From Cyanophora paradoxa CCMP329 (taxonomy: Eukaryota; Plantae; Glaucophyta): a DNA stretch of 64,000 bases. Positions 1 through 20,600 of the stretch are shown here, in pieces (the stretch's first letter is position 1; each line of letters starts with the position of its first letter). Where the stretch lies: assembly GCA_004431415.1 (NCBI GenBank), contig QPMI01000454.1:1-64000 (forward strand). The letters run 5' to 3'. Made by a program: the position numbers and the translations under genes. The notes under the pieces are model-generated. The model worked only from the letters and a program-made list of their open reading frames with translations, ran no database searches and was not told the DNA's origin.

Positions 1-640
1 TTGGTCTTCATCTCATCAACTGCCTGCTCATCGATTTGAGTTTCTTTCTTACCAATGAACTGCTTATCTGGGAGACCAGTAATTCCCATTCTATACACCT
101 CCTTTCGCAGCATCTCCTTTAATTTCGCTCTCTCTTTCTTCTCAGAGACATACTGTTCAAGTGCACTCGATTTCGCTTCCAGATCTTTTAGTTTCGCAGT
201 CATTTCGTCCCATTGGGCTTGGGAATTCGGTGAATATTCTGTGTAGGTGCGACCTTGTAGGTGACCTCACCAGCCATGGATTGAATTACCTTGTCTGATT
301 CCTTGGAGACACCTTCACCTTTGCGAGCAAGTGAGAGATCTTGCAGACCCAGTCCTTTATCATCAGCAGCACCAATAATTCGACGAGCACCTTCACCAAC
401 TGCTTTCATCTTTGTGGCTTCGGGTGAAATATTCAATTGATCACTGGTGGATGTTTGAGGCGCTTTATCATCGGGAGATTCTTCGTAAGCAGCATTGAGG
501 GGATCTTCCTGTTGCTGTGATGCTTTCACTTCATTGACACCATTGAATTTCATGGGATCTGTGTTAATAGAACCGGTTCCAGAGGATGCAGAATATGACA
601 TAGCACCGGCAGGAACACCAACTTTGCGTTTGGAAGGCAT
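1..640 (-). CDS. Viral hypothetical protein, apparently frameshifted near 240 and running off the window edge
   Basis: ORF 200-640; a second frame continues as a charged coiled-coil-like stretch (WDEMTAKLKDLEAKSSALEQYVSEKKERAKLKEMLRK). Confidence 0.5.
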
Positions 641-668
641 TGTATATTTATTAGAAGCAGAGATTATT

Positions 669-1447
669 TTACAAACCTCTCTTATATCGCATCAGTTTAT
701 TCGAATGAACACCACTCTTGACCTCTTTGGGTGCTTCCTCTTTCTGTGGAGATGGTAGTTCATCTTCTTTCTTTTTGGGCTTCCTGTGGAACCGAGGAAA
801 TGGGAAATCTTTGACCAGATCCGCTTTATCAACATAATAGTTCACCGAATAATTTGCAGAAGACCACACAATATATTGGTAAGAGTGCACATACTCCTCA
901 AACATCTTATAGAAATCGTCCTTGTTTCGCATGATATTATATTCCTCTTCAATGGCTTCGAGTTCTTTGCGATTTGCAGCACTCAGGAACACAGCATAAT
1001 CCGAATTTACTCGAATTGTTGAAGAAACCTTCCTCAGCTTCTGTGTGATGCAGATAATCGAGATTTTCGAATGGCGACCTCTGGAATAAAGAGATCCCAC
1101 GATTTTGTCTCGGGTCAAATCAATGATTTCGTTGTCTATTAGATCATCTAAGACCACACACAGGTGATTGACAGGTTCCCTTTTTCGATTTTCTCCTGCC
1201 TTTCATCCAGTAATTTGAAATGTAAGCAGCATCCCATTTCCCGAGTTGCAATGTTGCAACTGCATCCAGAAATGATTGAAGGACGTCCACTCACAACAAG
1301 AACAGTATCAATCTTTTTCGCATCATGCAGCTGTTTCAACCAATATTTCACACATTCTGACTTGCCTGTTGCAGACTTTCCTATGAAAAGAGCACGAAAT
1401 GGTGGGGTTATCATCTCAGATGCAACAAATTCTTCTAAATCGTTCAT
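669..1447 (-). CDS. A32-like (FtsK-HerA superfamily) virion DNA-packaging ATPase, frameshifted
   Basis: Walker A PFRALFIGKSATGKS in ORF 1148-1447; Walker B VLDDL and SRGRHSKISIICITQ...IRVNSDY in ORF 669-1157. Confidence 0.9.
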
Positions 1448-1516
1448 GGCTTTGTAGATCTTTCTTATTAAAGATAGATAAAAATAACGAACTGTTACTG
1501 ATAATGGTTTTACAGA

Positions 1517-2486
1517 TTAGAGAGATAAGAGGAATTGTTTAATGCACCGCTCAATATCAGTTTCTGTGTATGGGATGCGCAAGAGTTGGATATTGTTGGC
1601 TTCACAATAGCGGGTTTTAATCTGATCACGAATTTGCAGTTGCTCAAATGCTTTTTCTCCACCAAAAACCTCTACTGGTTCGAAGTGTTGGCGACCATCA
1701 TACTCAATTGCGATTTTCAGAGCGGGAATATAGAAATCGAAGGAAGTGCTTTTGTTTTACGACAGTCTTCAAAGGTAAATTGTCTGTTGTAATCAAGCCC
1801 AATTTCTTCCAAGACTGCTTCAATTGCAAGTTCACCTTTTGAGTTCTTGCAACGAGGGCAACCTCTATTCATCAGATGATTACAAGGAAGCTGATCGAAT
1901 TCATTTGAGCATTTCATACACTTGATGGATATTTTTGTTTTCTTGTTGACATACTTGACCTTGGAATAGTCATAGCGATCTCCATGGACTTCTTTCGCTT
2001 TCTCAATAAATAATTCTGTATTATTTCGCCTGTGATGACCATTTTGTTGGAGAAAACATGCTTTGCACCCTTGCTTTCTCAAATGTGCATATGGTGCCTG
2101 CTCAAAGGTCGATTTACACCCATTACACTTGATCAGAACTTTGCTTCTTGCATTCATATATTCAACGGCAGAATAATCATATCTGTCACCATGAACTTTC
2201 TTTGCCTCTTCAACAAAGGTGCTTTGTGGCTTCTTGCGATCATCATGAAGTTGTTTATCTCTGCAAGAAGGACATCCACCATTATTAACTCTTTTAGCCA
2301 TGCAAATATGATTTCCAGCAATTGTCTCAAAGTATTCCCTGCAAGTTTTGCAAAACAGAGTAACCTTTGCATGGTATGACTTGTAAACAACCCGATCATA
2401 TCCAAATTTATCTCCATGGGCTGCTTTGCTCTTCTCAATAAACTGTTCGATCGAGAGGGGTTTCTTTGTTTTATTATTGTAGACAC
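1517..2486 (-). CDS. DUF723-like zinc-ribbon repeat protein with C-terminal Vsr/DUF559-like PD-(D/E)xK endonuclease, frameshifted
   Basis: Three HGD(R/K)xxYxxVxY...CxxC...F.Q...H...GCxxC-type repeats, then SKGE...F..C. Restoring one base near 1741 gives LPFDFYIPALKIAIEYDGRQHF...RDQIKTRYCEANNIQLLRIPY. Confidence 0.8.
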
Positions 2487-2564
2487 CTTTTCTTTAAGTA
2501 GAAATCAAGGATGAAAAATGAATCAAATTTTGCAGACTTAGGTAACAAAAACATACATTTGTGA

Positions 2565-3934
2565 TTATAGATTGATTCGCCTCAGGCCGTCCTTATCGAC
2601 TATAATGAAACTGTGCATGAGAGCACGAACATTAACAGTGATTGTCTGGTCAGAAGGCATGTATAGAGTGAGGAAAGAGGAGGAGGAGTTCGTGAGATCA
2701 ACATAGCCAGACTGGGCAATGTTGCGAATCGCTTTCTCTCCATCAACACAGAATGGTAGACCACTGAGGACATATTTGTCTGCAACCTTGTCCATATTTG
2801 AGCACTTGAAGGCATCCGCAATTAATTCGGCACCTTTGAGGAGAGGGATGGGCTCAGTAGCATAGAGACGTTGACCATTAATTTCAACAGTGAAAGTAAT
2901 GTCTTTTGAGTTAGCATGCGTTTTTAGGACACTGTGGGAACCATTGAAACCATCTATACCTGCGGCATCACGAACTGAAACAAGAAGACCATAGACAAGA
3001 CCAGAGATCTGTGACAGGTTAATACGATTTGGCTGAGCATTGCCTTTTGCAGCAAAATTGACACTGTCTACGAAACCAATATCCAGAGCAGGAATAGCCA
3101 TACCAGTGGTCTTCACCTTCTCAATGACAGTAGCAAACAGTTCATCAGAAACATTAATAGCATGCATGTAAAGACGAGGAGAAGTGACTTTAATTTCGGG
3201 GTTGTTCCAGAGATGGTGAAAGTGGTGATTTGTTGACCAACATGGGCAAGAGTAGCATTAGCAGTAGCACCAAGTCCATCATCCTCTGTCTTATCAGCAG
3301 CTGTTCCACCAACAACTGGAAGAGCACGACCACCATAAGAAGTCTCAACATAACCCTTTCCAGCATCCTTGAACCAGACAGTTACCACCATTTCTCCTGA
3401 GAGAGCACCAAGAGGTAGGTAGTGGTTTAGCCATGGGACTGGGATTTCAACAAAGAATGAACCACCAAGTCGGTTGGTTCCATGAGCAGGGATACCATGA
3501 ACCATTCCCATTGAACGCTTCTTCTTGGCGAGTTGATCCTCACTGTAATAGATAAGAGGGAAATGAGCAAGGAAATCAGAAGGCACATGGAATGTGTAAG
3601 ATCCATAGGTGATTTCAAGTCGAGAGACAAGAGCACCAACTGGGCGAACGTATCCATTGCGAACAAGGTCGGTATCACCAGCAAAAGTGACAGCTGGAAG
3701 GTCAAACGCAAGTTCGAGTTTTCCACAGAAATTGTAGCGAGGGAGCTTGAACGAAATGCGATTTCCAGCATTATTCTCGAAAGTGTTGCTTGGGTTCACA
3801 ACAACAAGAACTGGCTTCGACTTGGATTCAAGACCAAGCATGAGAGAGTTGTCCAGGAAGAACGCCTTGGCTTCTTCCGGGGTTGTTAGAGCTTCTTTCA
3901 GAGAAAGACGTTGGAGGGTCGAAGTAATATCCAT
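2565..3934 (-). CDS. Major capsid protein, NCLDV (Vp54)-like double jelly-roll, one frameshift near 3170-3200
   Basis: N-half SFKLPRY..KLELAFDLP, LVSRLEITYG, FVEIPVPW..HYLPLGAL..EMVVTVWF; C-half VEINGQRL, LPF.....QSGYVDLTN, VNVRALMHSFIIVDKDG. About 455 aa when joined. Confidence 0.8.
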
Positions 3935-3988
3935 GATTATCTCTTTTATTATACTGCAACATAAAAAATTCACCAATGATCCTTGATT

Positions 3989-4999
3989 TTACGCAAAATT
4001 CGCAATAACCGGATAAGATGGATGGGTTTCCGCCATCCTCCTCTTGAAATATTCATACACAGGATCACCAGCAGGTTCATCACCATATCGAATTTCGAAG
4101 GTGAGATGCACAGGTTGACCCTCGAAATCAATTGGTTCATTAATTGCATTCACAATGTCAACCGAAAATGTGGAAAGTCCCAGATTCTTGTTATAGTATT
4201 TATAAATCGGATGGGCTTCTGTCGAATTATAAACGACATGCTCACCATAATCTTTATCTGGAACCACGATTTTGTGGAAATATCCAGTGAGGAGACCATC
4301 ACCACATTGAACCAGATCACCCAACTCCTTTACTCTCACAAACAGAACACTATCCCTGGTCTTTTCAGGTTCAAATGAAGATATGATACCATGCACCATC
4401 GACCCAGTAAAGATACCATCAGTCAGAGTATTATAAACTTGTGATTGGATTGGTGTGTTACCATATCTCCCAGGATCAAGACCAAGCAGTCGAGCAGAAC
4501 TCAAAAACCTCTGAATCTGTGCCTGGGTTGGGTTAATTGCGGTTGAGAAAGCCAGGTAAAACGGTATGGTTGAATGGAATATAACTCGTTTCAGTGTATC
4601 ATCCCATTTGCAACGAATAGCTACTGCTGGTTCTCTCAATGCAAGTTTGGAGTTAATTACATTCACCAGTTGTTGGTGGTTTTGAATGGGTGTGCTGCGA
4701 CTTATCACAATGTGTTTCCATGATTCATAATCAGCAGCAGGTCGATCAGTTGGAATACCAGTGCTTCCTGCACCAGAAAGATATTCAGACCAATAAAGGT
4801 AGAATGCATTATCTATTGTCACATCTCCTACTTTGGTTTCACCACTCACCATGGGGATGCTGTTATAGAATTCTGCTGAGACCAGTCTTACTGCTCTTAC
4901 AAATTCATATGTGCTGGGGAGGCGAGCAATAAAACTCGAAGTAGGTCCATCTCCCGAAATTGTATTGAAAGAGCTCACTTCAATGTAATCCACAGGCAT
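3989..4999 (-). CDS. Minor capsid (penton)-like single jelly-roll protein 1
   Basis: Intact 336-aa ORF with LPSTYEFVRAVRLVSAEFYNS and C-terminal FSVDIVNAINEPIDFEGQPVHLTFEI; adjacent to the MCP. Confidence 0.7.
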   Translation of the reverse strand: MPVDYIEVSSFNTISGDGPTSSFIARLPSTYEFVRAVRLVSAEFYNSIPMVSGETKVGDVTIDNAFYLYWSEYLSGAGSTGIPTDRPAADYESWKHIVISRSTPIQNHQQLVNVINSKLALREPAVAIRCKWDDTLKRVIFHSTIPFYLAFSTAINPTQAQIQRFLSSARLLGLDPGRYGNTPIQSQVYNTLTDGIFTGSMVHGIISSFEPEKTRDSVLFVRVKELGDLVQCGDGLLTGYFHKIVVPDKDYGEHVVYNSTEAHPIYKYYNKNLGLSTFSVDIVNAINEPIDFEGQPVHLTFEIRYGDEPAGDPVYEYFKRRMAETHPSYPVIANFA

Positions 5000-5027
5000 C
5001 TTCTTTTATCTATAAACATATATTAAA

Positions 5028-5958
5028 ATGATTCGGCTGGTCAATATAGATAGCAGAGACCGATCAGATGGACAAATAGAAAACTCCTACAAAGTTTCAC
5101 TCACAACCCCAGTGACCAAACCAAGAGAATGTCGAGTTTTGTATGCAGAGATCCCCAACAGCATCTATAACTCCATTGGAACAGACCACCTTCTTGTCAG
5201 ATTCTACTACCAAGGCATCTCTGAAACCAAGCAGGTCTTCCTTCTCCCAAGTGGTTACATAAATCAAGGTCATTTCGGGTCACCACTCCATATAATTATG
5301 GTCTGAATTTCACATTTACTGGGAGCAACAATCTCACATATGCATTCAAGGTCTACTACAACCCTACCTCCTACAAATTGGAGTTTTACAGTAATGTTCA
5401 ATTCGATATGGTTGCATCTACACAGAGATTGGGTAAACTTCTTGGTGTGAGTTCAGTGGAGTGGGTGGCTTCCACTGAACAGATTTACGATTTCCCAGAG
5501 TCTGCAAGGTCTTTATATGCCCCGAGAATTTCCTTTATTTCGCAGGAATACCAATCACCCCAAACCATCCCCAATGGGGAATCACATTCACAGGATATGA
5601 ATTCGAGGCATCTCGCTTAAACTACAAGTTAGAAGCTTCCAAGATGACAGATATGAATGCAGAACAGTATTTATACATGCACATTAAAGAACTCTCCCCA
5701 TTTGCTACAAACCACAATATTGTCCCACAATCTCAACCACAGAATCAAGGAGCGATTCTCAGATTGCAATTAAGTAAAGATATTGGACAGTATGTTTATC
5801 ACAGTGGAGAGCACAGTGAATACATAAAAATAACCGATCGAAACCTTGTGATTAGAGAGTTAACAGTTGAGTTTCGCGATTATTATGGTGATCTTGTAGA
5901 TATGAATGGAATTGACAACTCATTCCAGTTAGAGTTCTTGGCTATTGGTAATGATTAA
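5028..5958 (+). CDS. Minor capsid (penton)-like protein 2 (IDSRDR family), split by frameshifts
   Basis: N-terminal VNIDSRDR...VLYAEIPNS; C-terminal YLYMHIKEL...LTVEFRDYYGDLVDMNGIDNSFQLEF; three consecutive ORF fragments. Confidence 0.75.
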
Positions 5959-6163
5959 ACCGATCCTGATAGAAGAACTCCCCATCTGTCTCGAAAATAT
6001 TAAGAATGGGACTCTTTCGATCTTCTGTATACCATCGGCGAATTGTCTTATCCCATTTAGCACCATTCTTTTTCAAGAATCTACAAAGAGTTGATCTCCT
6101 TGTAATTCGCAATCCCATCTCTTGAAAGATCTCATAATGATCTTGTATTCTTTTCACAATCAA
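5942..6163 (-). CDS. Small DUF5710-like protein
   Basis: KKNGAKWDKTIRRWY matches the GAxWDxxxxxWY motif. Confidence 0.5.
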   Translation of the reverse strand: MIVKRIQDHYEIFQEMGLRITRRSTLCRFLKKNGAKWDKTIRRWYTEDRKSPILNIFETDGEFFYQDRFNHYQ

Positions 6164-6409
6164 GATGTAAGTCCATGGAAATTGTGATATTGCTGGTTAA
6201 TCGGCATGTTTCCTTTACAGCATGATGGGAAATCGTTTGTCATTTTTTGGCGAAACGAGAGTATCTCATGAGATAGATGAGAGAATAACAGGTGTGTTTT
6301 CAGGGTTGGAGAAATCGGAGAAACATAGAGTATTGCGATTTCCGAGTTAGTTGACACTGAGAAATTCAGAATTTCAGATGGTCTTACTGAAAATGGTCAG
6401 ATAATCGGG

Positions 6410-7435
6410 TGTGACACCTATTTAATTGACTGTGACGCCTCTTTAATTGACTGTGACGCCTGTGACGCCTGTGACGCCTACTTTCAAACTTTCTAAAATT
6501 TTCAAAAATGACAGACTTCTGAAAACAGCCGTCACAGCCGTCACAGGCGTCACACCCAATTAAAAATGGAATCTATCTCTCTTACTGGGATATTCAAAAA
6601 TATATTCTTGTCTTACTGAAATCCGTCTTGTGACACCTCTGACACCTACAAAACACTATCCATTAATCCACCTTCTCGAAAATGCGAAGTTGTCTTACTG
6701 GAAATGGTCTGCAATTTCGCTGTGACACCTAAATTAATTGAGTGTGACGCCTGTGACGCCTGTGACGCCTACTTTCAAACTTTTTAAAATTTTCAAAAAT
6801 GACAGACTTCTGAAAACAGGCGTCACAGCCGTCACAGGCGTCACAGACATTCTGCCCCCTTACTACTCTTCTCAAAAACAGAAATATATCTTACTGAATA
6901 TCATTTGAATACTATCTGTCACACTTGATTTCATTTATTCTGTTTTATAGAACATCTGCAATCTAATCGATTGATCAATTGGAGACCATGCAACTCTGTG
7001 ACACCTAAGTTAATTGAGTGTGACGCCTGTGACGCCTGTGACACCTACTTTCAAACTTTTTAAAATTTTCAAAAATGACAGACTTCTGAAAACAGGCGTC
7101 ACAGCCGTCACAGGCGTCACAGCCGTCACAGGCGTCACAGACATTCCACCCCTCTTACTGACTTTCTCAAAAACAAAACTATCTCTTACTGAATATCATT
7201 TGAATACTACCTGTCACACTTGATCTCAATTATTCTGTTTTATAGAACATATGCAATATAATCGATTGTTTAATTGGACGTGATGCAGTTCCGATATATT
7301 CCAATAGAAAATCCCGCAATCTGATCGATTGTTTAATTGGACATAATGCAACTCTGTGACACTCTTTCGGTGCAAAAATGTAAATCCGCAATTCCATCGA
7401 TTGTTTAATTGGACATAATGCAACTCTGTGACAGT
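6410..7435. repeat. Subterminal repeat array: three ~280-310 bp units, each with tandem TGTGACGCC 9-mers facing inverted (G/C)CGTCACAG 9-mers across a conserved AT-rich spacer, then ~4 copies of an ATCGATTGTTTAATTGGAC..TGCA motif
   Basis: Units start near 6410, 6721 and 6997 and share the spacer TACTTTCAAACTTTYTAAAATTTTCAAAAATGACAGACTTCTGAAAACAG. Confidence 0.9.
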
Positions 7436-7759
7436 TTTTGCGTTTTCCGATACAAAATGGGCGGTGGTCTACTTCAATACCGATGAGATATATCGAGTTT
7501 ATGCGAATTTATGCGAATTTATGCGAATTAATCGCGATTATATCGTTCTTTAAGTAGTTTAATGTTAATCAATCGAAGTTATATATGTAATCGACAAAGA
7601 ACATAATTTATCGATATAATATCGATTGAATCAATCGTGAATATGCATTAAATTAAACGCGTTTATCATTTTTAATACGAAGTTTGCATTAATTTATACA
7701 AAGTTTGCATAAAAAGTTAAAGAAATTAATCGATAAATATGTATTTTAGTATTAAATTA

Positions 7760-7854
7760 ACACATATTGAAAAACGAATTTAAATCCAGAGTGAATCGAG
7801 ATCGCGAAGCGATCGAGATGAACGAGGGATTTAAATTCGTTTTTCAATATGTGT
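7760..7854 (+). repeat. Terminal 95-nt hairpin/palindrome of the viral element
   Basis: 7760-7787 is the exact reverse complement of 7827-7854 (28 bp); the apex is GATCGC-GAA-GCGATC at 7800-7814. Confidence 0.95.
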
Positions 7855-9831
7855 GCTGTGGTGGATCAGGAAGGCCCCGTACGTGATCCGCACCACCGCC
7901 GAGTAGGGGAACATGTCGAGCCCGCGCCTGAAGATGTTCTCCGCGATCTCGACCGCCCGCGGGCTGCTGTGCTCCTCCAGGAAGCGCGTCGCGACCTCGA
8001 CGTGCCAGGCGCGGTCCAGCGCCAGGCCGTAGGCCCGCCCCGTGCAGAGGTACCGCCGGTAGTAGAAGCCGCAGTAGTAGTAGCCGAGGGCGCCGGCGGG
8101 GACGATGCCGAGGATCATGAGCGTGTAGAAGGCGGCGGGCGTGGTCGACTCGCGGAGCCGCTTGTCGGCGGCGCCCTCGAGGAACATGAAGATGGAGATC
8201 CACAGGAAGGCAGCGTACGACGCGCAGCGCAGCTGGTTCATCCACAGGCGGAAGAAGGGGTAGTATCTACGCACAAATGTTTAAGACTGAATACAAAAAG
8301 CGGGCCCATGACCATGACAAGGCACGCACGCGAGGACCGACCAGAGGGCGGCTGCGACGCAGGCGACGGAGAGGGCGCCCGTGAGCGTCTGGTTGAAGTC
8401 GGTGTAGCAGAGGACGACCTGGACCGCCAGCATCGCCGTCAGGTTCATGAGCTCGCTGCGCGACTGCCCGCGGTTGAACCAGACGCCCTTGCTGTACGGG
8501 TTGCTGCGCCCAGGACAAGTCAGGGTCGTCGCGTGGCGCTGGCCCGGCGGCCTTGGATGCATGCGCAGGCCATGCTCGCCTCTCATAGTAGAAGAGGCCT
8601 GCACTCGGCACAGGCATTCACGATATCGATTAGTCGACGAACGTCAGAGCGCGAAATATTCGCGGTTCGATATTTCGCGATCGCGGACCGTAGCTGTACG
8701 TGAGCAGCAGGAAGGCGAAAGCGGTGACGCCCGTGACGGCGCACATCATGACGTGGTAGGCCCCCCAGCACGTCACCTCGGGGAAGCTGCGCGCGCCCGT
8801 GGCGGTCAGATCTAGAGAGAGCGAAGCCCTCGAGCCGAGGGTGGGGGCCGGGACCTGTAGTGGGGGGTCCGCCCGAGGCCCGGGCTGCGGCAGTCGTAGA
8901 CCTCGAGGAGGACCACCAGAAATGGGATGTAGACCGCGTTCGGGAACACTGCGCGCGCCGATAGCGATATCGATATCGATCCAGGCCCAGGGGGGGACTC
9001 GAGCTCGCGATCGAGCGCACAGTGCCCGAAGACGCGGAGGTAGCGCAGGGGGAACTTGAACTTGAAGCTGCAGGCACAGGGCCAGGGCGTCGGCGCGGTG
9101 AAGTACGAGACGAGTGGTTCAAGGCCCCGCACCTGTGCATGCTAAAGGCGTACCCCACGTACGCGGCGTTCATCGCGGCGATCCAAATGACGGCGGAGAC
9201 GAAGCCGTACAGGATCGTGAACCTGCGCGCACGCGCGGAATTCAACTTCCCTTCGGGCGTGAGACGGAGCGGGTCTGGGCCAAGGATGGGCCCACCGCTC
9301 CCAGGTCCACCAGACGCCGTCGAACCGGAACCAGTCGTGGAGGAAGTGGCCCAGCTCCTGTGGGCGCCGGGGGCGCGGCCGGGGTGATCAGGAGACGGGC
9401 GCCGGTCAATTGCAAGCAGGGCAGGCGGACTCGGGGCGGACCGTGTAGGGCCCGCCCCAGGGGACGGGGTTCCCGTTGACGCCGGGGAGCCCCCAGAACA
9501 TCATGCACATCGCTGCGGGGGCGCGGCGTGAGGGCGACGGCGACCTCGGGCTCGGCGGGGCGGGGCGGGCCGGCGAGGGCGCACGCATGAGGAGGACGAA
9601 GGTGACCTGCACGACGAGGTCGAAGACCTGCCAGCGCCTGCTCCGGCTCGTGTCTTTAATGGCCACCAGGGCGATGCCGAATATAGTCGTGCGGACGGAC
9701 TCCAGGGCGACGCGGACTTCCCCGATCGCCCCGGGCGCCTCCGTCCGACTCGAGGCCCACGACCCCGCCTGCGAGCCGCCCCCGTGCGACGAGGCGCCAT
9801 CCCCGCCCGCCTTCCTCCGCCGAACCACCAT
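7855..9831 (-). pseudogene. 5' part of a multi-exon TmcB/TmcC-like multi-pass membrane protein gene, interrupted by the viral insertion
   Basis: Several TM exons followed by YYPFFRLWMNQLR...WHVEVATRFL...AENIFRRGLDMFPYSAVVRITYGAFLIHHS, which runs straight into viral DNA. Start position uncertain. Confidence 0.6.
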
Positions 9832-11010: not shown

Positions 11011-14000
11011 ATGCGCATGCAGAAGGGGCAGGCGGCAGGCAAGAAGGGCAAGGGGAAGAAGGGGCGGAAGCCGAGCGCGGCGGGGATGGTGCCGCAGTCG
11101 GTGCTGGAGATCCTGGAGGCGAGGCTGAAGACCTCGAACCAGGAGCTCGAGGCCCTCCGGTCCCCGCCCCGCCCCGCCCCGCCGCTCGCCGCCCGCCGGC
11201 CGACGCCGCCGCTCGCAGCGTGCGCGCCGACTACGTGAAGAGCGACTACGACAAGGTCAAGGTACGGCCGCCGGCCCCCGCGCCGGTTCCGGCGCCGGGG
11301 CGCGGGGCCGACACGCCGCTGACAGGTCGAGCTGGCCGACGCGAGGCTCTCGTGCGCGGGCGGGGGGCGCGGGGGCGGGGCGCGGGCGCGGGGCCGGCTG
11401 CCCGGGCGCGGGGCGAGGGGCGGGGTCGTCCGCAGGCTGGAGCGGAAGGAGGAGCAGCTGCGGGCGCGGGAGAAGGACCTCGAGCACGCCGAGCAGCGCT
11501 TCGAGGAGCAGAGCAAGGCCCGCCCGCCCCGGGCCCCAGCCCAGCCCCCGCCCGCCGCGGCCGCCCCTCACCGGCCCCGCCCCGCCCCGCCGCAGATCTG
11601 GCGGCAGCAGCTCGAGGACGTCCGCGCCGAGCAGTGCGCCCGCCGGGGCCGCCGGGGCGGGGCGGGCGGGGCGGGGCGCTGAGGGGCCGCCAGCCAGCGG
11701 GCCTTCCTGGGCCTCAAACAGGGCGACGAGGGCTACGTCAAGCTCCTCCAGGAGCAGTTCCGGTGCGCTGCGCCGCGCCGGCGGGGCGGGGCGGGGCTGC
11801 GCGGGGCTGCGGGGGGCCGAGCGGGGGCGGGGCGGCCGGCAGGGAGCGGGAGCGGGAGCTGAAGGAGGATCGGGAGCACCTCGAGAAGCGCATCCGGGTG
11901 CGAGCGAGCGGGCACCCCGCAGGAGGCGCCGGGGCCGCGGCGGCGCTGAAGGGGGCGGGGGCGCAGGAGATCGAGCAGACGTACGAGCGGCGGATGGAGG
12001 CGATGAAGCAGGAGCAGGAGGCCTCGATGCGCCGCTGGCTCGAGGCCCGCCCCCGCTCCCGCGAGGCTCCCCCGCCGGCCGGCCTCGCCCCCCTGACCGG
12101 CCGGCCGGCGGGGGCACAGGAGTTCGAGACGCCGACACTGCTGGGCGTGTACAAGCAGTCGCACGGGCCGGCCCCCGGTGCGGCCCCGCCCCGCCCCGCC
12201 CGGCTCGGTGGCCGACCGGGGCGGCGAGTGACGCGGCGGGGGGCAGGCAAGTGGGAGATCTCGACGTCGTTCGTGCCGACGGTGCCGCAGGCGACGTCGC
12301 TCTTCCCGCGGCCGCCGAGCGCGGGGCGGGGCCGGCCCTCCTCGGCCGGCGGGCGCTACCGGAACATCTACGAGAAGCTGACGGACCCCGGGATCTACAC
12401 GGGGGCCCACAAGGCCCGCTTCGCCGCCGCCTTCGACGACCCCGCCCCGCCCCCGCCGCCCCCCGCACCCCGCGAGCCCTCGCCCCCGCCGGGGCCGCCC
12501 CCCGTCCGCATCCAGCACACCCTCGACGTCAAGCCCCCGCCCAGCCGCAGCCGCAGCCGCAGCCGCCGGCGCAGCCGCGGCCGGCCTCCGCGGGGCCCCG
12601 CACGCAGGCGTGGGAGGCGGGGCAGGGGGCGCGGAGCCCGCCGCCGCAGTCGGGGGCCCCGGCGCCCGGGCAGCAGCAGCAGCAGCAGCAGCAGGGGATC
12701 GGGCGGGTGGGAAAGGCGGAGAACGAGCGGCTGGAGGCGCGGTTCCTGGAGTTCTGCCGCTTCGGGGACAAGTCGAACCTCGGGCAGATGAACTCCGCCA
12801 AGTTCTCCAAGCTCTGCCGCGGTGCCCCGCCCCCTGTCCCCCGCCCCTGCCCTCCCCCGCGGGCTCACCCGCCCTCTACGGCAGAGTGCGGGCTGATGGA
12901 CGCGTCGTTCACGCCGACGGACGCCGACCTCGTCTTCTCGAGCGCCCTCGTCAAGGGCCAACGCCTCATCACCTTCCAGCAGTTCAAGGCCCGCCCCCGC
13001 CCCGGCCCCCGCCCGCCCCGCCCCGCCCGGCTGAGCCGCTGGGGCAGGCGGCGCTGCGGATGGCGGCGGCGCGGAAGCACGGGACGCTGGGCCCCGACGA
13101 GGGCTTTGCCGCCCTCGTTTCCGCCGTCCGCCCACCCCTCGGCCCTCAGCTTTCCCCCGCCCCCCGCCGTCCGCGCTCTGACCCCCTCGCAGATCCTCAT
13201 GGCCCGGGGCCCGACAACACCGGCACGGCGCGCCCCGCGCCCCAGCCCCCGCCCCGCCCCGGGGCCGCCCGCTGACGCGCCCGCCGCCGCGCAGCGCGCC
13301 GACGCGCGGGGCGTCTACTCGAAGCTCACCGACGTCGCCCTCTACACCGGTACCCCCGCCGCCCGCCCCCCCCCCCTCCCCCCCCCCCCTCCGCTGAGGG
13401 CCTCCCCCAGGGATGTACAAGGACCGGTTCGCGGAGAAGTTCTCGGCCGCGGCGGCCGCCGCCGGCGCCGACGACGCCTCCTTCTTCGTCACCCAGCGCG
13501 GTGCGCGGGGCCGAGGGGCCCCGCCCCCCCCCGCCCCCGCCGCTGAGGGCGCGGGCGCAGGCGAGGGCGGCGGAGGCGGCACGGCGCGCTCCGCGTCGCC
13601 CCAGCACGCGAAGCCGGCGGCGGCGGCGGCGGCGGCGGCGCACGCGCCCCCCGCGGCGCCGCACCCGCCGCCGAAGGTGTCGCGGCTCGGGGCGCGGGAG
13701 TGGGACGCGCTGCGGGACGTGTACATGCGCTTCTGCCAGTTCGGCGGCGACCGCGTCCGCCCCCGCCCCCGCCCCGCCCGCCCCCGCCCCGCCCGCCCCC
13801 GCCCCGCCCGCCCCCGCCCGCCCGGCCGCGGCCGGCCCCGCTCACGCCCCCCCCCCGCGGCGGCAGATGAACACGGGGCAGATGACCAACCAGAAGTTCA
13901 ACAAGATGCTCCGCGGTGCGCCCGGGGACTGGGGCGGGGCGCTCGGGCCGCGCTGCGCGGGCGGGGCCGACGCGGCCGGCGGGGCAGACACGGGGCTGCT

Positions 14001-16056
14001 GGAGGGCGGGTTCACGCCGACGGACGGGGACCTGCTCTGGTCCCAAGTCTGCCCCAAGGGCCTCCGCACCGTCGAGTTCGAGCAGTTCACGGTGCCCCGC
14101 CCCCTCCGCCCCCGCCTCCGCCCCGCTCACCCTCGCTCACCCCCTCGCCCGCCGGCTGCAGGCGCTGCTGCGGGGCATCGGGCGCAAGAAGGAGCCCCGC
14201 CTGAGTGCGCGCGGCCGCCCCGCCCCACCGGCCCCTGCGGAGCCCTCACGGGGCGGGGCGGCAGGCGACGAGGAGGCGCTTCACTACGTGGCCGGCATCG
14301 TCGCCGCCTCGGGGGGCCCCCAGGACCGCGGCTCCGTGCGCCCCGCCGAGTCGCGGGGCCCGGCCTTCTTCTCCGCCTCACCCGCCCGCCGGCGGCAGCG
14401 GGCGGACACGCGGGGGATCTACTCGAAGCTGACGGACGTGAGCAAGTACACCGGCATGTACCGCGAGCGGTCCGCCCCCGCCCCTGGCCCCCACCCCGCC
14501 CCGCCTCGCCTGATCCCCGCTCCCCGCCGCGCAGATTCGTCCCCGACGAGCCCGAGTAGCCGCCCCTCCCCTCCCCTCCCCTGGCCTGTTGCGCCTTGTT
14601 TGGGCGCTGATCCCGCGCCCCCGCCTGCGCCCCACAGGTACCTGCCCTTCACATTCCCGCCCCGCCCCACCAGCGCCCCGCGCCAGCGACCCGAGTCCCC
14701 CTCGGGCGGCGCCTCGCCCCGGCCCCAGTCGGCCCGCCGGCCCCAGTCCGCCCGCCGCGCCCCGCGCGCCCCCTCAGCGCCCGCGCCTCCCTCCCCTCGG
14801 GGCAGCCGGCGCCGGGGCCCGGCCCGGCGGCGCCGGCGCCGGGGGGCCCCGCCGGGGAGCACCTGCGGGCGCTCTTCGGGGCGTACTGCCAGTTCGGGGA
14901 CAAGGGCAACACGGGGGCCCTCACGGGCACCAAGTTCGCCAAGTTCTGCCGCGGTGCGCCCTGGGCCTTCCTAGTTCAGAAGCCGGCGGCTCGCTGAGGG
15001 CGGGGCCAGAGTGCGAGCTGGTGGGGCGGGACCTCTCCGCGACGGACGTCGACCTCGTCTGGTCCCAGGTCTGCCCCCGCGGCGCCCGCACCGTCGACTT
15101 CGACCAGTTCGCGGTGCCCCCGCCCCCGCCGGCCCCGGCCCCGGTCCGCTCCCGCCTTACGGGGGGCGGCAGGCGGCGCTGCGGGCGATCTCGACGGCGC
15201 TGTACCCCGCGCTGGGGCACGAGGAGGCCTTCCGGCGGACGCTGGAGCGCCTGCTCCGCTTCAGGGGCCCCGAGAGCAGCGGCACGCCCGCCGACGCCAC
15301 CGGCATCTACTCCAAGGTCGCCCGACCCCGCCCCGAGCAAGGCCGGCGAGGGGCTCTGACGGCTGACGGCTGACGGCGGGGCCGCGCAGCTGACGGACCC
15401 GGGGCAGTACACGGGCATGTACAAGGAGCGCGCCGCCGAGGCCGGCGAGCGCGGGCGCGGCGGGCCCTCGCCCCCGCCCGCCGCCGCCGCCTCCAGGCGC
15501 GACTCGGCCGGCTCCACGTCCGGGGCGGGGCGCCCGACGCTGGCGCCCACGGAGATGTCGTGGGTGTCGGCGCCGTCGCCGCGGCCGCCGGCGCTGCAGT
15601 CGCCGCCGCCCCTCTTGGGGGGCCTCGCCGGGGCGGAGCTGGAGGCGGGCGGGGAGCCGACGCTGGCCTCTGTCTTCCTCGACTGCTGCCGGGCGGGGGA
15701 CCCCCAGAACCGCGGCAAGATGAGCGGCGCCAAGGCCCGTCGCCCGCCCCCGCCCTGTGTGACGCATCGGGCCCCGTCGGCATCTGACGCCCGCGCAGTT
15801 CGCGCGCTTCTGCAAGGCGCTGGAGATCGTGGCGGACGGGTCGGGGGCGGAGGCGCCGCTGAGCGGGGTGGACGCGGAGCTGACGTTCGCGCTGGTGGCG
15901 CGCAAGGGCGAGCGCGTCATCGGCTTCCGCCAGTTCGAGGAGGCCTTCCGCTCCCTCGCCCGCCGCGTCTTCCCCGAGGGGACCCCCGACGAGGCCGTGG
16001 ACCGCCTCACCCGCCGCGCCCTCGCCACCGACTTCGAGGGAGTCCCCTTCCCCTAG
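11011..16056 (+). CDS. Multi-domain TPPP/p25-alpha family microtubule-binding protein with N-terminal coiled coil (multi-exon)
   Basis: Four p25-alpha cores (e.g. FLEFCRFGD...MNSAKFSKLCRECGLMD..FTPTDADLVF...ITFQQFKAAL) and four Y(E/S)KLTDxxxYTGxxxxR motifs. Confidence 0.85.
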
Positions 16057-16835
16057 CCGGCCCCTGCCCTCGGCCCGCCCCCTTCCGAAATTACTCCCCC
16101 GCGCGCCGGCCCGCCCCCTCCTCCCCCGCGCCCCCCCCCCCCCCCCCCCCCCCCCCTTTTTTTCAAACTCCCCCGCCAGGCTGTGTGATAGGCCTAGGGC
16201 GCAGTGTAAGTGACCTGTGGACCCCTCGCTTCCTTCGACCTTCCTTGACAGCCTGTCCGAATCCGCGCCATATCATGATTGAATGAAGGCTGTCTATATA
16301 TAGTTCTGCAAGCTTTTCAAAGGGAATCTATCACTGAATCACTGACTCTAGCTTAAGATCACTGAATTGAATATCTACACGTATACTCATTATATAACCT
16401 TCAAGCCTGCAATTACATGGAAACATGCATATGCATGCGCTGCGCGTGCACGTCTTTCCCCCCGGCCTTTATAAGGCTTCCCATGCATGCATATGCGCAT
16501 GCAAGCACGTGCACTGCGGCATGCGCAGCGCTAGCTGCTGTTCCCCTTTCCTCTAGATCCGGGCGAGGCCCCTTGAGCTTCGAATTCGATTCATCACTTC
16601 GGGTTCAGGATCATCACTAGTAGTAATGCAATTTCTATTTTCAAAATTGCATTATCACCAACTCGAGCTCATTGATTCGAATCTGTAACTTAGTAACCTC
16701 ATCTCATCATGATCATGATCATCCCCTCCACTACAACTAGAGCTACTAGGGATTGCATGCAATTTAGATTTGCACTGGTAGTGATTTTGCAGATCTAGAT
16801 CTAGATCGAGACTTCGAATTCTTCAGGCTGGCAAA

Positions 16836-17688: not shown

Positions 17689-20600
17689 TCACGGGCGCCT
17701 GTGGCTGCGGGTGCGGCTGCGGGCGGGGAGGGTGCCCTGGAGGGCGCGCTTGAAGGCCGAGTTGCAGAGGCCGGAGGCGGTGAAGACGGAGAGGACGCCG
17801 CCCTCCGCCTCCTGCGCGCCCGCGTCAACCGCGGCCGAGTCGTCGTCGCGCTTGAATAAGAGTCTGCGGAGATCGGGATCGGGATCTGTTGGGCGCACCA
17901 CCCCCCGCTGGTACCACCGGGCGGCCTCCGCAGTGCGCCCCTGCCCGCGCCCGCACGTACGCGTGAGCGCCGCGCGCGAAACGGACGCCGCGCGTGCGGG
18001 GGCGGGCTCGCCTCCTGGTTGCAGTGGTACGCGAGCTGGAAGTGCGCCTCCGCGAACTCCCTGCGAGCCCCGCGAACGCTGACATTGGCACTCCCGCAAG
18101 CGCAGGGCAGGGCAGAGCTTGCAGGGCCGCACCGCTCCTCGGGGGAGGCGGCGGCTACGTAGGACTTGAGGCGGGCGATGCCCTCCGCCCTCTTCGCGGG
18201 GATGCGGCTCTCCCTGCGCCGGCGGGGTCCTCGACGTCAGCTCGACGGGGCCGAGCGCGAGCGGCGAGGGGGGCCCGGGGCGCATGCGCATGCGCACGAG
18301 GAGCCGAGGAAGAAGAGGAGCGAGGGGCGGTGGGGCCTGTCGGCGGGGGAGCCGGAGGCGTCCAGGAGCTCCAGCGCCCGCCGCAGGAGTCGCGCCACCT
18401 CGCCGACGGCCCCCGTGTGTATTGTAATGCTCGCCGCCAGGCTGCCCACGCGCGTCGCATAAGCGAGGGGCTGGGCGCTGGGACGGGGCGGGGCGGGGCG
18501 GACGCGTGGAGGGCCCAGTCGTTGGGGGCGAACGCGAGGGCGCGCTGCAATAGCGGCACCATGTTGGCGGCCCCCACAGACCAGCCGTTTGAGTTCTGCC
18601 GTTTGTTGAGACCAGCAGCTTGCGGAAACCGCAGCCGCATGCGCAGGGCACGCCGGCCGCGGGGCGCACAACGCAGCAGAAGGCGGTGACGGCGTCCGGG
18701 TCGTTGGGACGCCCCGCCAGGTACGCCTGCAACTCATCCTGCGCGCGAGAGAAGGCCCGACTCGTGAGCTGGGACTTGCTAGCGATTGTGATTGCATCGC
18801 GAGGAGAACTTGGTGACGCGCCCTGAGCCGCTCCCTGAGGTGATCCGGCATGATGATGACTTCGCTGTTGCGCTTTATTGCGAAAGCCAGGTGCGGAACC
18901 TGCGTGCGCGCGGGGCGCCCTGAGGCGGCGGGAGCCTGAGGGGGGCGAGACCGGTGTACCGCCTCCGGGACGCGCCCCGCACGCCAGAGCCCGAAGCCCG
19001 TGTCCCACCGGCGACGGCAGACCAGCAGACGCGCCGCGACCTGCGCATGCGCGCGCACACACACACGTCAACGATTCAGATTTCGCAAGAGCTTTGGAGG
19101 AGACTGCGAGCACCGCGCTGCCGGCGTCCGCAAGGGGCTGCAGCGCGTCGCAGTGGAAGCGGTCTTGTAAAGTGAACGGGAACGGGACCTGCGCGCATGC
19201 AGAATTCAGATTCGATGTGACTCTTCGTCAGGGGCAGTCACGCTGCACCTCGGCCGATGTCGACGCCGCAGCCGATGTCGACGCCGCAGCTGATGTCGAC
19301 GCCGCAGCCGATGTCGACGCCGCAGCTGATGTCGACGCCGCAGCTGATGTCGACGCCGCAGCCGATGTCGACGCCGCAGCTGATGTCGACGCCGCAGCTG
19401 ATGTCGACGCCGCAGCCGATGTCGAAACCGCAGCTGATGTCGACGTTGCAGCCGATGTCGACGCCGCAGCCGATGTCGACGCCGCAGCCGATGTCGACGC
19501 CGCAGCCGATGTCGACGCCGCAGCCGACGTCGACGCCGCAGCCGACGTCGACGCCGCAGCCGATGTCGACGCCGCAGCTGATGTCGACGCCGCAGCCGAT
19601 GTCGACGCCGCAGCTGATGTCGACGCCGCAGCCGATGTCGACGCCGCAGCTGATGTCGACGCCGCAGCCGATGTCGACGCCGCAGCTGATGTCGACGCCG
19701 CAGCCGATGTCGACGCCGGCGTCTCGACTGGAACCTGCTGGAACCGGTGCGCTGTAAATATAAGATTTTCCTGGAAGCGACCCCGGCTCCGGCCCGGCCC
19801 GCTTACCCGCTGCGCGTTGGCTTCCCGGCGTTTGTCCTCCAAGCGCGCGAGCTCCGTCCGCAGTGATTCGTTCTGCGTGTCCAATCTTGTGGCCTCGCGA
19901 ACATTCGAGATCGCAGCGTCAAGCTTGCCCTGCCTTTCCAGTGCTTCGGCCAATAACGAGTGCATCTGTGCGTATGGAGTGAACGAATTGATTAGATGGA
20001 TAAGCGAGCGTCATGATCATATTGATACTCGAAAGATTGGGTCGACGCACTTCCACAATTTTAGATTGCGGACACAATTGCGATCCACGAGGGAGCCCCA
20101 TTGCAACAACGTACAGACATTGGAAAGCAGCTTTGATCCACCGCTCGCGTTTCCGCGGTTCCGCTATCTCTTGCGCCGCACGGAACCAGTAGTCCACAAT
20201 GCGATCGACGCAGGCCGCCTTCAATGGGATGCTAGCAGAGCCCAGCAGCTTGTAGAGCTCTGCGTCCAAGTGCTCGGCTGCGACCGAAAGAAGGGCCGCA
20301 TTCCCTTCGCTCGGCAGCTGCAGGCGAGCAATGCGCTGGGCGCCAAGAACAGCGTCCAGGCTCGCGCGGCGCCGCTCCAGGCCGGCGACGGCCATGGCCG
20401 GCGTAGATGCACGGCGAAGATGGAGCAGTATGCACGCCTCCACAGCCATGACGGCTTCACTCGGAAGGAGGGGCAGTTCTAGACCGCCCAGCAGCTCGAA
20501 GACCTCGTCGAGACGGCCCTGGGCCATAAGTACCCGCGCCAAGAGTACTTGGGCCTGCAGATAACGAGGGGCGGGATATATTAGAACAGGAATCATCATG

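What the first reader, a model, noticed from the sequence alone, without database searches (positions are those of the whole stretch)
1..7854. Small endogenous virus with an NCLDV-type capsid rather than a typical Polinton or virophage capsid
Seen: a compact morphogenesis module (ATPase, MCP, two pentons) lies within about 7 kb of a defined terminus. The MCP motifs follow the Vp54/NCLDV pattern in both jelly-rolls. Inference: a dwarf Nucleocytoviricota relative or divergent Polinton-like virus that integrates into this protist. With the hairpin end and iteron array it may be an undescribed lineage. Replication and integration genes are not in this window.
Basis: partly seen in the sequence, partly recalled or inferred. 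Interest (0 to 1): 0.85.

Follow-up and report, generated by a model that had tools for sequence, protein, structure and literature searches.

The report
Hairpin-ended polinton-like provirus in glaucophyte alga
This is one end of a small DNA virus inserted, likely in a few dozen copies, in the genome of what is likely the alga Cyanophora; the coat-protein fold predicted from a close relative resembles that of giant viruses, but that is common among polinton-like viruses, and this coat-protein family was already catalogued, though never named or placed on a tree.

Summary
The element is real: an AT-rich arm with an A32-type ATPase, a double-jelly-roll MCP, two likely minor capsid genes, palindromic repeat units and a 95-nt terminal hairpin abutting host DNA at 7854. 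Short-read contigs suggest about 20-40 near-identical copies. Frameshifts are likely long-read errors. A homing-endonuclease gene sits at single-copy depth. The model of a 59%-identical intact paralogue fits PBCV-1 Vp54 best (Z 29) and virophage capsids far less (Z 15). That is not diagnostic: Bellas et al. 2023 report that Polinton and PLV capsids generally resemble NCLDV capsids, and their tables already list this Cyanophora paradoxa MCP family in unnamed 'new' clusters. A second paper tallies 156 glaucophyte elements with rve integrase, pPolB or D5 primase-helicase and no protease. PLV-sized, integrating viruses with NCLDV-like capsid modules (Zoravirus group) and terminal palindromes are in 2026 preprints. 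The glaucophyte lineage is nevertheless an outlier (2 of 156 hit the PLV MCP profile) and is unplaced; no tree could be built here. The scan has noted likely sibling copies before (e1-10595593, e1-10595630). Verdict: new member of a known kind.

The parts
1..640 (-). ORF of unknown function, runs off the window; one frame break near 218
   Evidence: 213 codons open with one X; short-read contigs of sibling copies carry one extra base at 218; no family hit
669..1447 (-). A32-like genome-packaging ATPase, 260 aa, four frame breaks (about 1178, 1216, 1265, 1286)
   Evidence: Pox_A32 E 4e-8; 85% identical to intact P0010 when read with X; three of the four breaks seen as one-base indels in short-read contigs
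1511..2586 (-). Single-copy insertion carrying a homing-endonuclease-type gene (zinc-finger repeats plus nuclease domain; frame 2493-1517, one break between 1717 and 1758)
   Evidence: phrog_559 E 1e-42 and 1e-28 on adjoining profile positions; depth 36-50 against roughly 800-2000 for single contigs of neighbouring genes; contigs of three runs skip 1510 to 2587; the unique contig has 0 substitutions and 1 gap
2565..3934 (-). Double-jelly-roll major capsid protein, 456 aa, one frame break near 3195-3200
   Evidence: 59% identical to P0001; model of P0001 pLDDT 62.8, pTM 0.67; best match PBCV-1 capsid Z 29.4, rmsd 3.5, 349 aligned
3989..4999 (-). Likely minor capsid protein (penton) 1, 336 aa, intact
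   Evidence: Inferred from position, size and recalled single-jelly-roll motifs; weak similarity to the next gene; no database hit
5028..5958 (+). Likely minor capsid protein (penton) 2, 310 aa, breaks at about 5276 and 5519
   Evidence: Open with two X; both breaks seen as one-base indels in short-read contigs; identity inferred as for gene 1
5942..6196 (-). Small ORF with a weak DUF5710 match
   Evidence: E 4e-4 to 6e-4, below Pfam's cut-off
6395..7260 (.). Three ~290-nt units, each with a ~127-nt core of 9-mer repeats in inverted arrangement around an AT-rich spacer; likely protein-binding sites inside the terminal repeat
   Evidence: 29 TGTGAC/GTCACA boxes in 6301-7460; function inferred
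7251..7532 (.). Shorter repeats (54-nt family, 10-nt tandem) leading into an AT-rich tract
7760..7854 (+). 95-nt terminal imperfect palindrome: 28-bp stem, purine-rich internal loops, GAA triloop; 3' end of the + strand
   Evidence: -34.3 kcal/mol, z -13.8; the other strand folds at -32.9; identical contig at depth 2683 and 2852 against host 67 and 35; some siblings share the stem but have another tip
7855..8280 (-). Host flank: an open frame with hydrophobic stretches that runs into the element and stops inside the hairpin, likely an interrupted host exon
   Evidence: single-copy contig 7829 onward with 0 differences in three runs; other flanks behind 7854/7856 in other contigs

Best explanation
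The stretch is the capsid-and-terminus arm of a multi-copy endogenous polinton-like virus, likely intact, in the genome of what is likely the glaucophyte Cyanophora paradoxa; it likely spreads by integrase-mediated insertion, would be copied from its fold-back end, and would be packaged by its A32 ATPase into a double-jelly-roll capsid. Shown: the genes, the sharp end at 7854, different host flanks behind the same end, high depth, a Vp54-like fold for a 59%-identical paralogue. Inferred from published tallies of glaucophyte elements: an rve integrase and either pPolB or a D5-type primase-helicase in the unseen left part, no maturation protease, total length 15-30 kb with a mirror-image left end. 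Inferred from anatomy (about 45% likely): after excision the 3' palindrome folds back and primes synthesis, and the palindromic 9-mer boxes bind the replication or integration protein. Untested: virion formation and dependence on a giant virus. The NCLDV-like capsid fold is the default for this whole virus group; whether the lineage sits on the NCLDV-related branch of PLVs (about 40%), among Aquintoviricetes, or alone is unresolved.
For: Depth and flanks: element contigs 800-2100 against 36-50 for the AT-matched single-copy nuclease gene and 28-67 for host; different flanks behind 7854 and 7856. Fold: Vp54 Z 29.4, faustovirus 27.3, SGIV 25.1, ASFV 24.1, D13 22.3, PRD1 18.8, Sputnik 15.6, mavirus 15.2. 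P0001 is a C. paradoxa protein and is listed in Table S2 of PMC10120064 with four other close C. paradoxa MCPs; Table S4 counts 272 + 94 hits in unnamed 'new' clusters 21 and 29. PMC12220804 Table S6, 156 glaucophyte elements under 'PLV and Mixed': ATPase1-PLV 107, ATPaseCOR-NCLDV 1, rve 85, pPolB 49, D5_N 40, lipase 89, protease 0, tyrosine recombinase 0. PMC10120064 states Polinton and PLV MCPs are more similar to NCLDV capsids than to virophage ones; even Trichomonas and Proteromonas MCPs hit PBCV-1 first. No Capsid_NCLDV or Capsid_N hit for 0 of 9 family members at E 10. Terminal palindromes are reported for other PLVs and virophages.
Against: Integrase and replicase are not in the window and no genome was available, so length and gene content come from papers and an unchecked scan note. 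The 156-element tally pools both MCP clusters, so it need not describe this subfamily. The glaucophyte set is an outlier: MCP-POL profile 2 of 156 (76-100% in 17 of the 18 other host rows seen) and the only host row with NCLDV-type minor-capsid hits, 15 against 0. In the ESM Atlas 23 of 30 feature hits for P0001 were clusters where 12-18% of members carry NCLDV capsid Pfams, although recognition was below the reliable level. The structure library showed no PLV or Polinton capsid, so the fold ranking cannot separate the groups. The model is of a paralogue, at moderate confidence. Depth is a rough proxy for copies.
Confidence: 0.8

Rival explanations
1. A distinct branch of the NCLDV-related small viruses (near Zoravirus VC102/VC218 and Mriyaviricetes) that integrates in glaucophytes; a sub-case of the best explanation that vindicates the first reader's lean.
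For: Outlier profile scores and NCLDV-type minor-capsid hits; Atlas neighbours; Vp54 fit well above virophages; L001, a 10.5-kb IMG/VR contig with a weak HUH-Rep match, has an ATPase 26% identical (E 4e-15) and a 399-aa protein that aligns end to end with the MCP profile (hhalign E 0.0011, probability 20%; 8.7 bits against at most 3.6 in 300 shuffles); the 2026 preprint describes rve-encoding, TIR-flanked 20-30 kb members of this branch.
Against: No Capsid_NCLDV/Capsid_N match, whereas some members of that branch are detected by NCLDV profiles; published ATPase hits favour the PLV profile 107 to 1; L002, an rve-bearing PLV-like stretch, gives an equally good ATPase match (33%, E 5e-12); L001 was fetched with a motif taken from this ATPase and is one data point; no Mriya48, VLTF2/3, RuvC or HUH gene seen in this arm.
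Confidence: 0.4
2. A true Mriyaviricetes member or a fragment of a giant endogenous virus.
For: Vp54-like fold, A32 ATPase, homing endonuclease of a kind common in large viruses; giant-virus insertions are reported in C. paradoxa and a scan note reports mriyaviruses in this genome.
Against: Sharp palindromic end shared by tens of copies with different flanks; no NCLDV capsid Pfam; mriyaviruses lack integration genes while 85 of 156 glaucophyte elements carry rve.
Confidence: 0.08
3. A decayed relic or an assembly chimera of a free virus with host DNA.
For: At least nine frame breaks in 6 kb; only 26-30 element bases overlap the host contig at the junction, under the tool's 31-base rule.
Against: Seven breaks appear as one-base indels in short-read contigs, all touching a run of the same base; the single-copy nuclease contig has 0 substitutions and 1 gap in three runs; read with X every gene has full length and no stop; the same junction contig starts inside the hairpin in three runs.
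Confidence: 0.07

Closest known systems
Cyanophora paradoxa endogenous MCP clusters 21 and 29 (Bellas et al. 2023, PMC10120064, Tables S2, S4) and the 156 glaucophyte EVEs of Bulzu et al. 2025 (PMC12220804, Table S6)
   Same: Same MCP family: P0001 is gene_47449 of Table S2; gene_64235 matches the window MCP at 44 of the first 49 residues (counted by eye); multi-copy; A32 ATPase; NCLDV best hits by HHpred
   Different: Those papers list and count the elements but, in the parts read, give no group name, tree position, terminal structure or repeat array; which of the two clusters holds this MCP was not determined
NCLDV-related PLVs: Zoravirus VC102, VC134, VC218, Zephyrvirus, VC40, Alpenseevirus/GKS2 (bioRxiv 10.64898/2026.06.19.733378)
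   Same: PLV size, terminal repeats, rve in VC102/VC218, NCLDV-like capsid module, variable replicase
   Different: Main text does not mention Cyanophora, glaucophytes, hairpins or palindromes; Mriya48 and HUH not seen in this arm; no close relative in IMG/VR
Mriyaviricetes (Yaraviridae, 'Gamadviridae'; PMC11253617)
   Same: Small genome, Vp54-like MCP, A32 ATPase
   Different: 35-45 kb, core VLTF2, VLTF3, RuvC, HUH, Mriya48, no integrase; none of these seen here (left part unseen)
Halocafeteria seosinensis virophages and PLV subtype 4 with terminal palindromes (bioRxiv 10.64898/2026.07.28.741278)
   Same: Palindrome at the outer edge of the terminal repeat; hairpin-priming model already proposed
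   Different: 52 nt in the subtype shown, here 95 nt with purine-rich internal loops; other host; MCP here is not virophage-like
Virophaviricetes and Polintoviricetes
   Same: DJR MCP, penton, A32 ATPase, integration into protist genomes
   Different: Fold far from Sputnik/mavirus (Z 15 against 29); no cysteine protease in this arm or in 0 of 156 glaucophyte elements tallied

Membership tests
Polinton-like viruses (broad sense) | Double-jelly-roll major capsid protein | tested here: met
   Model of 59%-identical P0001 matches DJR capsids, Z up to 29.4
Polinton-like viruses (broad sense) | A32-like packaging ATPase | tested here: met
   Pox_A32 above cut-off
Polinton-like viruses (broad sense) | Single-jelly-roll minor capsid protein | tested here: inconclusive
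   Two candidates, no database hit, not folded
Polinton-like viruses (broad sense) | Integrated, multi-copy, defined termini, GC shift | tested here: met
   (one end only)
Polinton-like viruses (broad sense) | 14-40 kb length, paired TIRs, TSD, integrase and replicase | not testable with these tools
   Left part outside the window; no genome held; indirect support
Virophaviricetes | Virophage-type MCP | tested here: not met
   Sputnik Z 15.6 and mavirus 15.2 against Vp54 29.4; MCP-VIR 0 of 156 in the published tally
Virophaviricetes / Polintoviricetes | Cysteine maturation protease | tested here: inconclusive
   None among the 13 ORF pieces scanned; left part unseen; 0 of 156 in the published tally
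Nucleocytoviricota proper | MCP recognised by Capsid_NCLDV / Capsid_N | tested here: not met
   0 of 9 alignment members at E 10; structural likeness only
Nucleocytoviricota proper | Core PolB, D5, VLTF2/3, RNA polymerase; genome over 100 kb | not testable with these tools
   None in this arm; remainder unseen
Mriyaviricetes | VLTF2, VLTF3, RuvC, HUH endonuclease, Mriya48 | tested here: inconclusive
   No Pfam hit to such families in 1-6200; no Mriya48 profile on hand; remainder unseen
NCLDV-related PLVs (Zoravirus/Zephyrvirus branch) | MCP profile clustering and ATPase phylogeny with Mriyaviruses/NCLDV | tested here: inconclusive
   Only two reference loci could be fetched; weak MCP link to L001, equal ATPase link to L001 and L002; no tree built

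The most novel reading that the evidence does not exclude
The Cyanophora elements, with their distant relatives P0004/P0007/P0009 from unnamed metagenome assemblies, form an unnamed deep branch of the NCLDV-related small viruses that joins an rve-type integrated stage to hairpin-primed replication like that of poxviruses and asfarviruses, and sits intact in dozens of copies in a culturable alga, so that a candidate living relative of the giant-virus ancestor could be induced and studied.
Probability: 0.3. Interest if true: 0.65.

Novelty: new member of a known kind. Interest (0 to 1): 0.38.

Why it matters
The boundary between polinton-like viruses and the giant-virus phylum is being redrawn, and most NCLDV-related small viruses are known only from metagenomes without hosts. 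An apparently intact, multi-copy lineage in a culturable glaucophyte that escapes standard PLV capsid profiles is a good sample to place on that tree and a tractable system to test hairpin-primed replication and induction. The element itself and its NCLDV-like capsid are not new, so the gain is incremental unless the tree position proves deep.

Tried and rejected
Whole-genome access: none held, so no leftward extension. Sequence searches of PDB with MCP halves, the MCP profile, the ATPase and gene 3989-4999: no relevant hit. P0001 against phage records: no match. Single-sequence fold of P0001 failed, pLDDT 34; the 9-row alignment worked. The search for related loci found no relative in IMG/VR or JGI metagenomes. 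Among 1.84 billion representatives 6 proteins scored E 0.001 or better; P0003, a 3989-aa repeat protein, was dropped as spurious. Motif scans of IMG/VR gave only 2 loci, too few for a tree, so no phylogeny was built. The Atlas did not answer for the penton candidate or the ATPase, so the pentons stay unfolded. No RNA holder was listed; runs guessed to be RNA cover only scraps: no statement on expression. No strand-switch joint at the hairpin tip in contigs: uninformative about a free hairpin-closed form. No PLV or Polinton capsid appeared among the 50 structure rows shown. No Rfam match in 1-8000. A TCTA box upstream of 4 of 6 starts (shuffle p 0.02, chosen after seeing it, one start uncertain; 13 other 4-mers score as high) recalls a late-promoter motif of CroV/mavirus from memory; a paper search found nothing: not used. 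Strand-specific folding of the hairpin is not shown by the energy model (-34.3 against -32.9). The host frame at the junction has no convincing Pfam match.
Full report
Observation. Bases 1-7854 are 39-44% GC against 54-85% for the rest of the window, with the step at 7851-7900. The arm holds, from left to right, an unknown ORF running off the window, an A32-like ATPase (669-1447, Pox_A32 E 4e-8 on one piece), a homing-endonuclease gene (phrog_559, E 1e-42 and 1e-28), the MCP (2565-3934), two divergent ORFs of 336 and 310 aa, a small ORF, 1.1 kb of repeats and a 95-nt palindrome at the very end.

Frame breaks. At least nine breaks interrupt the genes. Short-read contigs show a one-base indel at seven places (218, 1216, 1265, 1286, 5276, 5519, 6172), each touching a run of the same base; these contigs come from sibling copies, so they show the family is intact, not this copy. 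For the single-copy nuclease gene the unique contig has 0 substitutions and 1 gap in three runs, so that break at least is likely an assembly error. Read with X, the ATPase is 260 aa and 85% identical to intact P0010, and the MCP is 456 aa and 59% identical to intact P0001, with no stops. PMC10120064 reports the same artefact for such elements.

Copy number and end. Single contigs over the capsid genes have depth about 800-2100; the AT-matched nuclease gene has 36-50 and the host flank 28-67. That suggests roughly 20-40 near-identical copies, though depth is only a rough proxy. Contigs of three runs skip 1510 to 2587, so the nuclease is an insertion in few copies. Depth falls from thousands to host level just after 7855, a host contig starts inside the hairpin with 0 differences in three runs, and other contigs carry other GC-rich flanks behind 7854 or 7856. 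The overlap is only 26-30 bases, under the tool's bridging rule. A host frame on the minus strand runs into the element and stops inside the hairpin, likely an interrupted exon.

Terminus. The palindrome folds with a 28-bp perfect stem, three purine-rich internal loops and a GAA triloop (-34.3 kcal/mol, z -13.8, 0 of 200 shuffles); the other strand folds almost as well. Some siblings keep the stem and change the tip. Inward lie three ~290-nt units whose cores are 9-mer repeats in inverted arrangement, with 29 TGTGAC/GTCACA boxes in 1160 bases against 2 in the coding arm and 6 in 56 kb of host. Their role as binding sites is inferred.

Capsid. The family is rare: 6 hits among 1.84 billion representatives, one of them spurious, and nothing in IMG/VR or JGI scans. 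With a 9-row alignment AlphaFold2 gave P0001 pLDDT 62.8 and pTM 0.67. The model fits PBCV-1 capsid proteins best (Z 29.4, rmsd 3.5, 349 aligned), then faustovirus 27.3, SGIV 25.1, ASFV 24.1, vaccinia D13 22.3, PRD1 18.8, Sputnik 15.6, mavirus 15.2 (Foldseek agrees). So it is a double jelly-roll and not virophage-like. Pfam's NCLDV capsid families hit 0 of 9 members. The two penton candidates share 28% over 46 aa (E 0.011) and have no database hit; calling them pentons rests on position, size and recalled motifs.

Why the NCLDV likeness is not diagnostic. PMC10120064 (read: parts 1-2, section 9, passages, supplementary file 2 parts 26-29 and search rows) says MCPs of Polintons and PLVs other than Gosseviruses are more similar to NCLDV capsids than to Sputnik, and its tables give NCLDV best hits for MCPs from many hosts. 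No PLV or Polinton capsid was among the 50 structure rows shown here.

What is already in print. P0001 is a Cyanophora paradoxa protein and appears as gene_47449 in Table S2 of PMC10120064 (HHpred iridovirus MCP, 98.5%); gene_64235 there is closer still to the window MCP (44 of the first 49 residues, by eye). Table S4 counts 366 MCP hits in C. paradoxa, 272 and 94 in clusters 21 and 29, both 'new' and without a group name. PMC12220804 (passages; Table S6 upper rows) tallies 156 glaucophyte elements: Pox_A32 139, ATPase1-PLV 107, ATPaseCOR-NCLDV 1, rve 85, pPolB 49, D5_N 40, Pif1 34, lipase 89, protease 0, tyrosine recombinase 0. This is PLV gene content, but it pools both clusters. The bioRxiv preprint 10.64898/2026.06.19.733378 (parts 1-4 of 5; supplements closed) defines PLV-sized, TIR-flanked, partly rve-encoding viruses with NCLDV-like capsid modules (Zoravirus VC102, VC218, VC134, Zephyrvirus, VC40, GKS2) and does not mention Cyanophora, glaucophytes, hairpins or palindromes. 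Terminal palindromes with a hairpin-priming model are in 10.64898/2026.07.28.741278 (passages). Replicase swapping is in 10.64898/2026.10.13.758929 (parts 1-3 of 5). Mriyavirus core genes are from PMC11253617 (passages). PMC12344493 (passages) reports methylation of viral genes and giant-virus insertions in C. paradoxa; PMC8502044 (passages) notes adintovirus-like contigs in it. Searches found no paper that names or places the glaucophyte lineage; subscription journals and preprint supplements were not searched.

Evidence that the lineage is unusual. In Table S6 only 2 of 156 glaucophyte elements hit the PLV/Polinton MCP profile, against 76-100% in 17 of the 18 other host rows seen (the other exception is Parabasalia), and they are the only row with NCLDV-type minor-capsid hits, 15 against 0. 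In the Atlas 23 of 30 feature hits for P0001 were clusters with 12-18% NCLDV capsid Pfams, at low recognition. L001, a 10.5-kb contig with a weak HUH-Rep match, has a weakly but detectably related MCP candidate (8.7 bits against at most 3.6 in 300 shuffles; hhalign E 0.0011) and a 26%-identical ATPase. Against this, the rve-bearing stretch L002 matches the ATPase as well, and both loci were fetched with a motif taken from this ATPase. Two loci cannot support a tree, so placement is open; I put the NCLDV-related branch at about 40%.

Mechanism. Shown: capsid module, sharp end, several flanks, high depth. Inferred: an rve integrase in the unseen part inserts the linear genome; after excision the 3' palindrome folds back and primes synthesis (about 45%), the palindromic boxes serving as binding sites; A32 packages the DNA into a DJR capsid with two vertex proteins; copies are likely kept silent by host CpG methylation (element CpG observed/expected 0.56 against 1.09 in host, which may equally reflect base composition). 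Helper dependence is untested.

Earlier scan notes. Notes on other pieces of this genome describe a 28-kb PLV with a 95-nt hairpin at both ends (e1-10595593) and siblings with different replicases (e1-10595630). I confirmed the hairpin's length and tip motif in this copy but not the 28 kb or the replicases; two look-ups by sequence returned nothing.

Verdict. Observation confirmed; interpretation partly supported. A catalogued but unnamed glaucophyte PLV lineage, a new member of a known kind. Interest 0.38.

Noticed in passing
window 1511-2586: A homing-endonuclease gene at single-copy depth sits between ATPase and MCP; other copies carry about 20-40 other bases there, so it looks like a recent invasion of one or a few proviruses. 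The frame has no ATG until 2301 although it is open from 2493.
   Followed up: partly
window 7789-7824: Sibling copies keep the 28-bp stem but carry a different tip that repeats the GCGAAGC motif, a hint of selection on a fold-back structure.
   Followed up: partly
window 7855-9300, minus strand: The interrupted host frame has hydrophobic stretches followed by a motif that recalls TmcB/TmcC-type PAS-domain membrane proteins (from memory; no Pfam support).
   Followed up: partly
window, 40 bases upstream of six element genes: TCTA within 35 bases of 4 of 6 starts; weak, post hoc.
   Followed up: yes
L001:3377-9733: 10.5-kb IMG/VR contig with A32 ATPase, weak HUH-Rep match, GIY-YIG nuclease, a fibre-like protein and a 399-aa MCP candidate with no Pfam hit; looks like a Zoravirus/VC218-type small virus.
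   Followed up: partly
L002:5700-11800: Error-rich PLV-like stretch (rve E 1e-6, A32 ATPase, penton-like frame) inside an 84-kb IMG/VR contig that also holds a psbA-like fragment; possibly chimeric.
   Followed up: no
proteins P0004, P0007, P0009: A second clade of this MCP family (22-27% identical to P0001, about 60-65% among themselves) from unnamed ENA assemblies, contigs up to 11.9 kb; host unknown.
   Followed up: partly
window 19228-20010: Long tandem array of a short unit in the host part (reads as STSAAA repeats in one frame).
   Followed up: no
window 12800-13100 and 15300-16300: Host frames with repeated p25-alpha/TPPP-like motifs (recalled, not tested).
   Followed up: no
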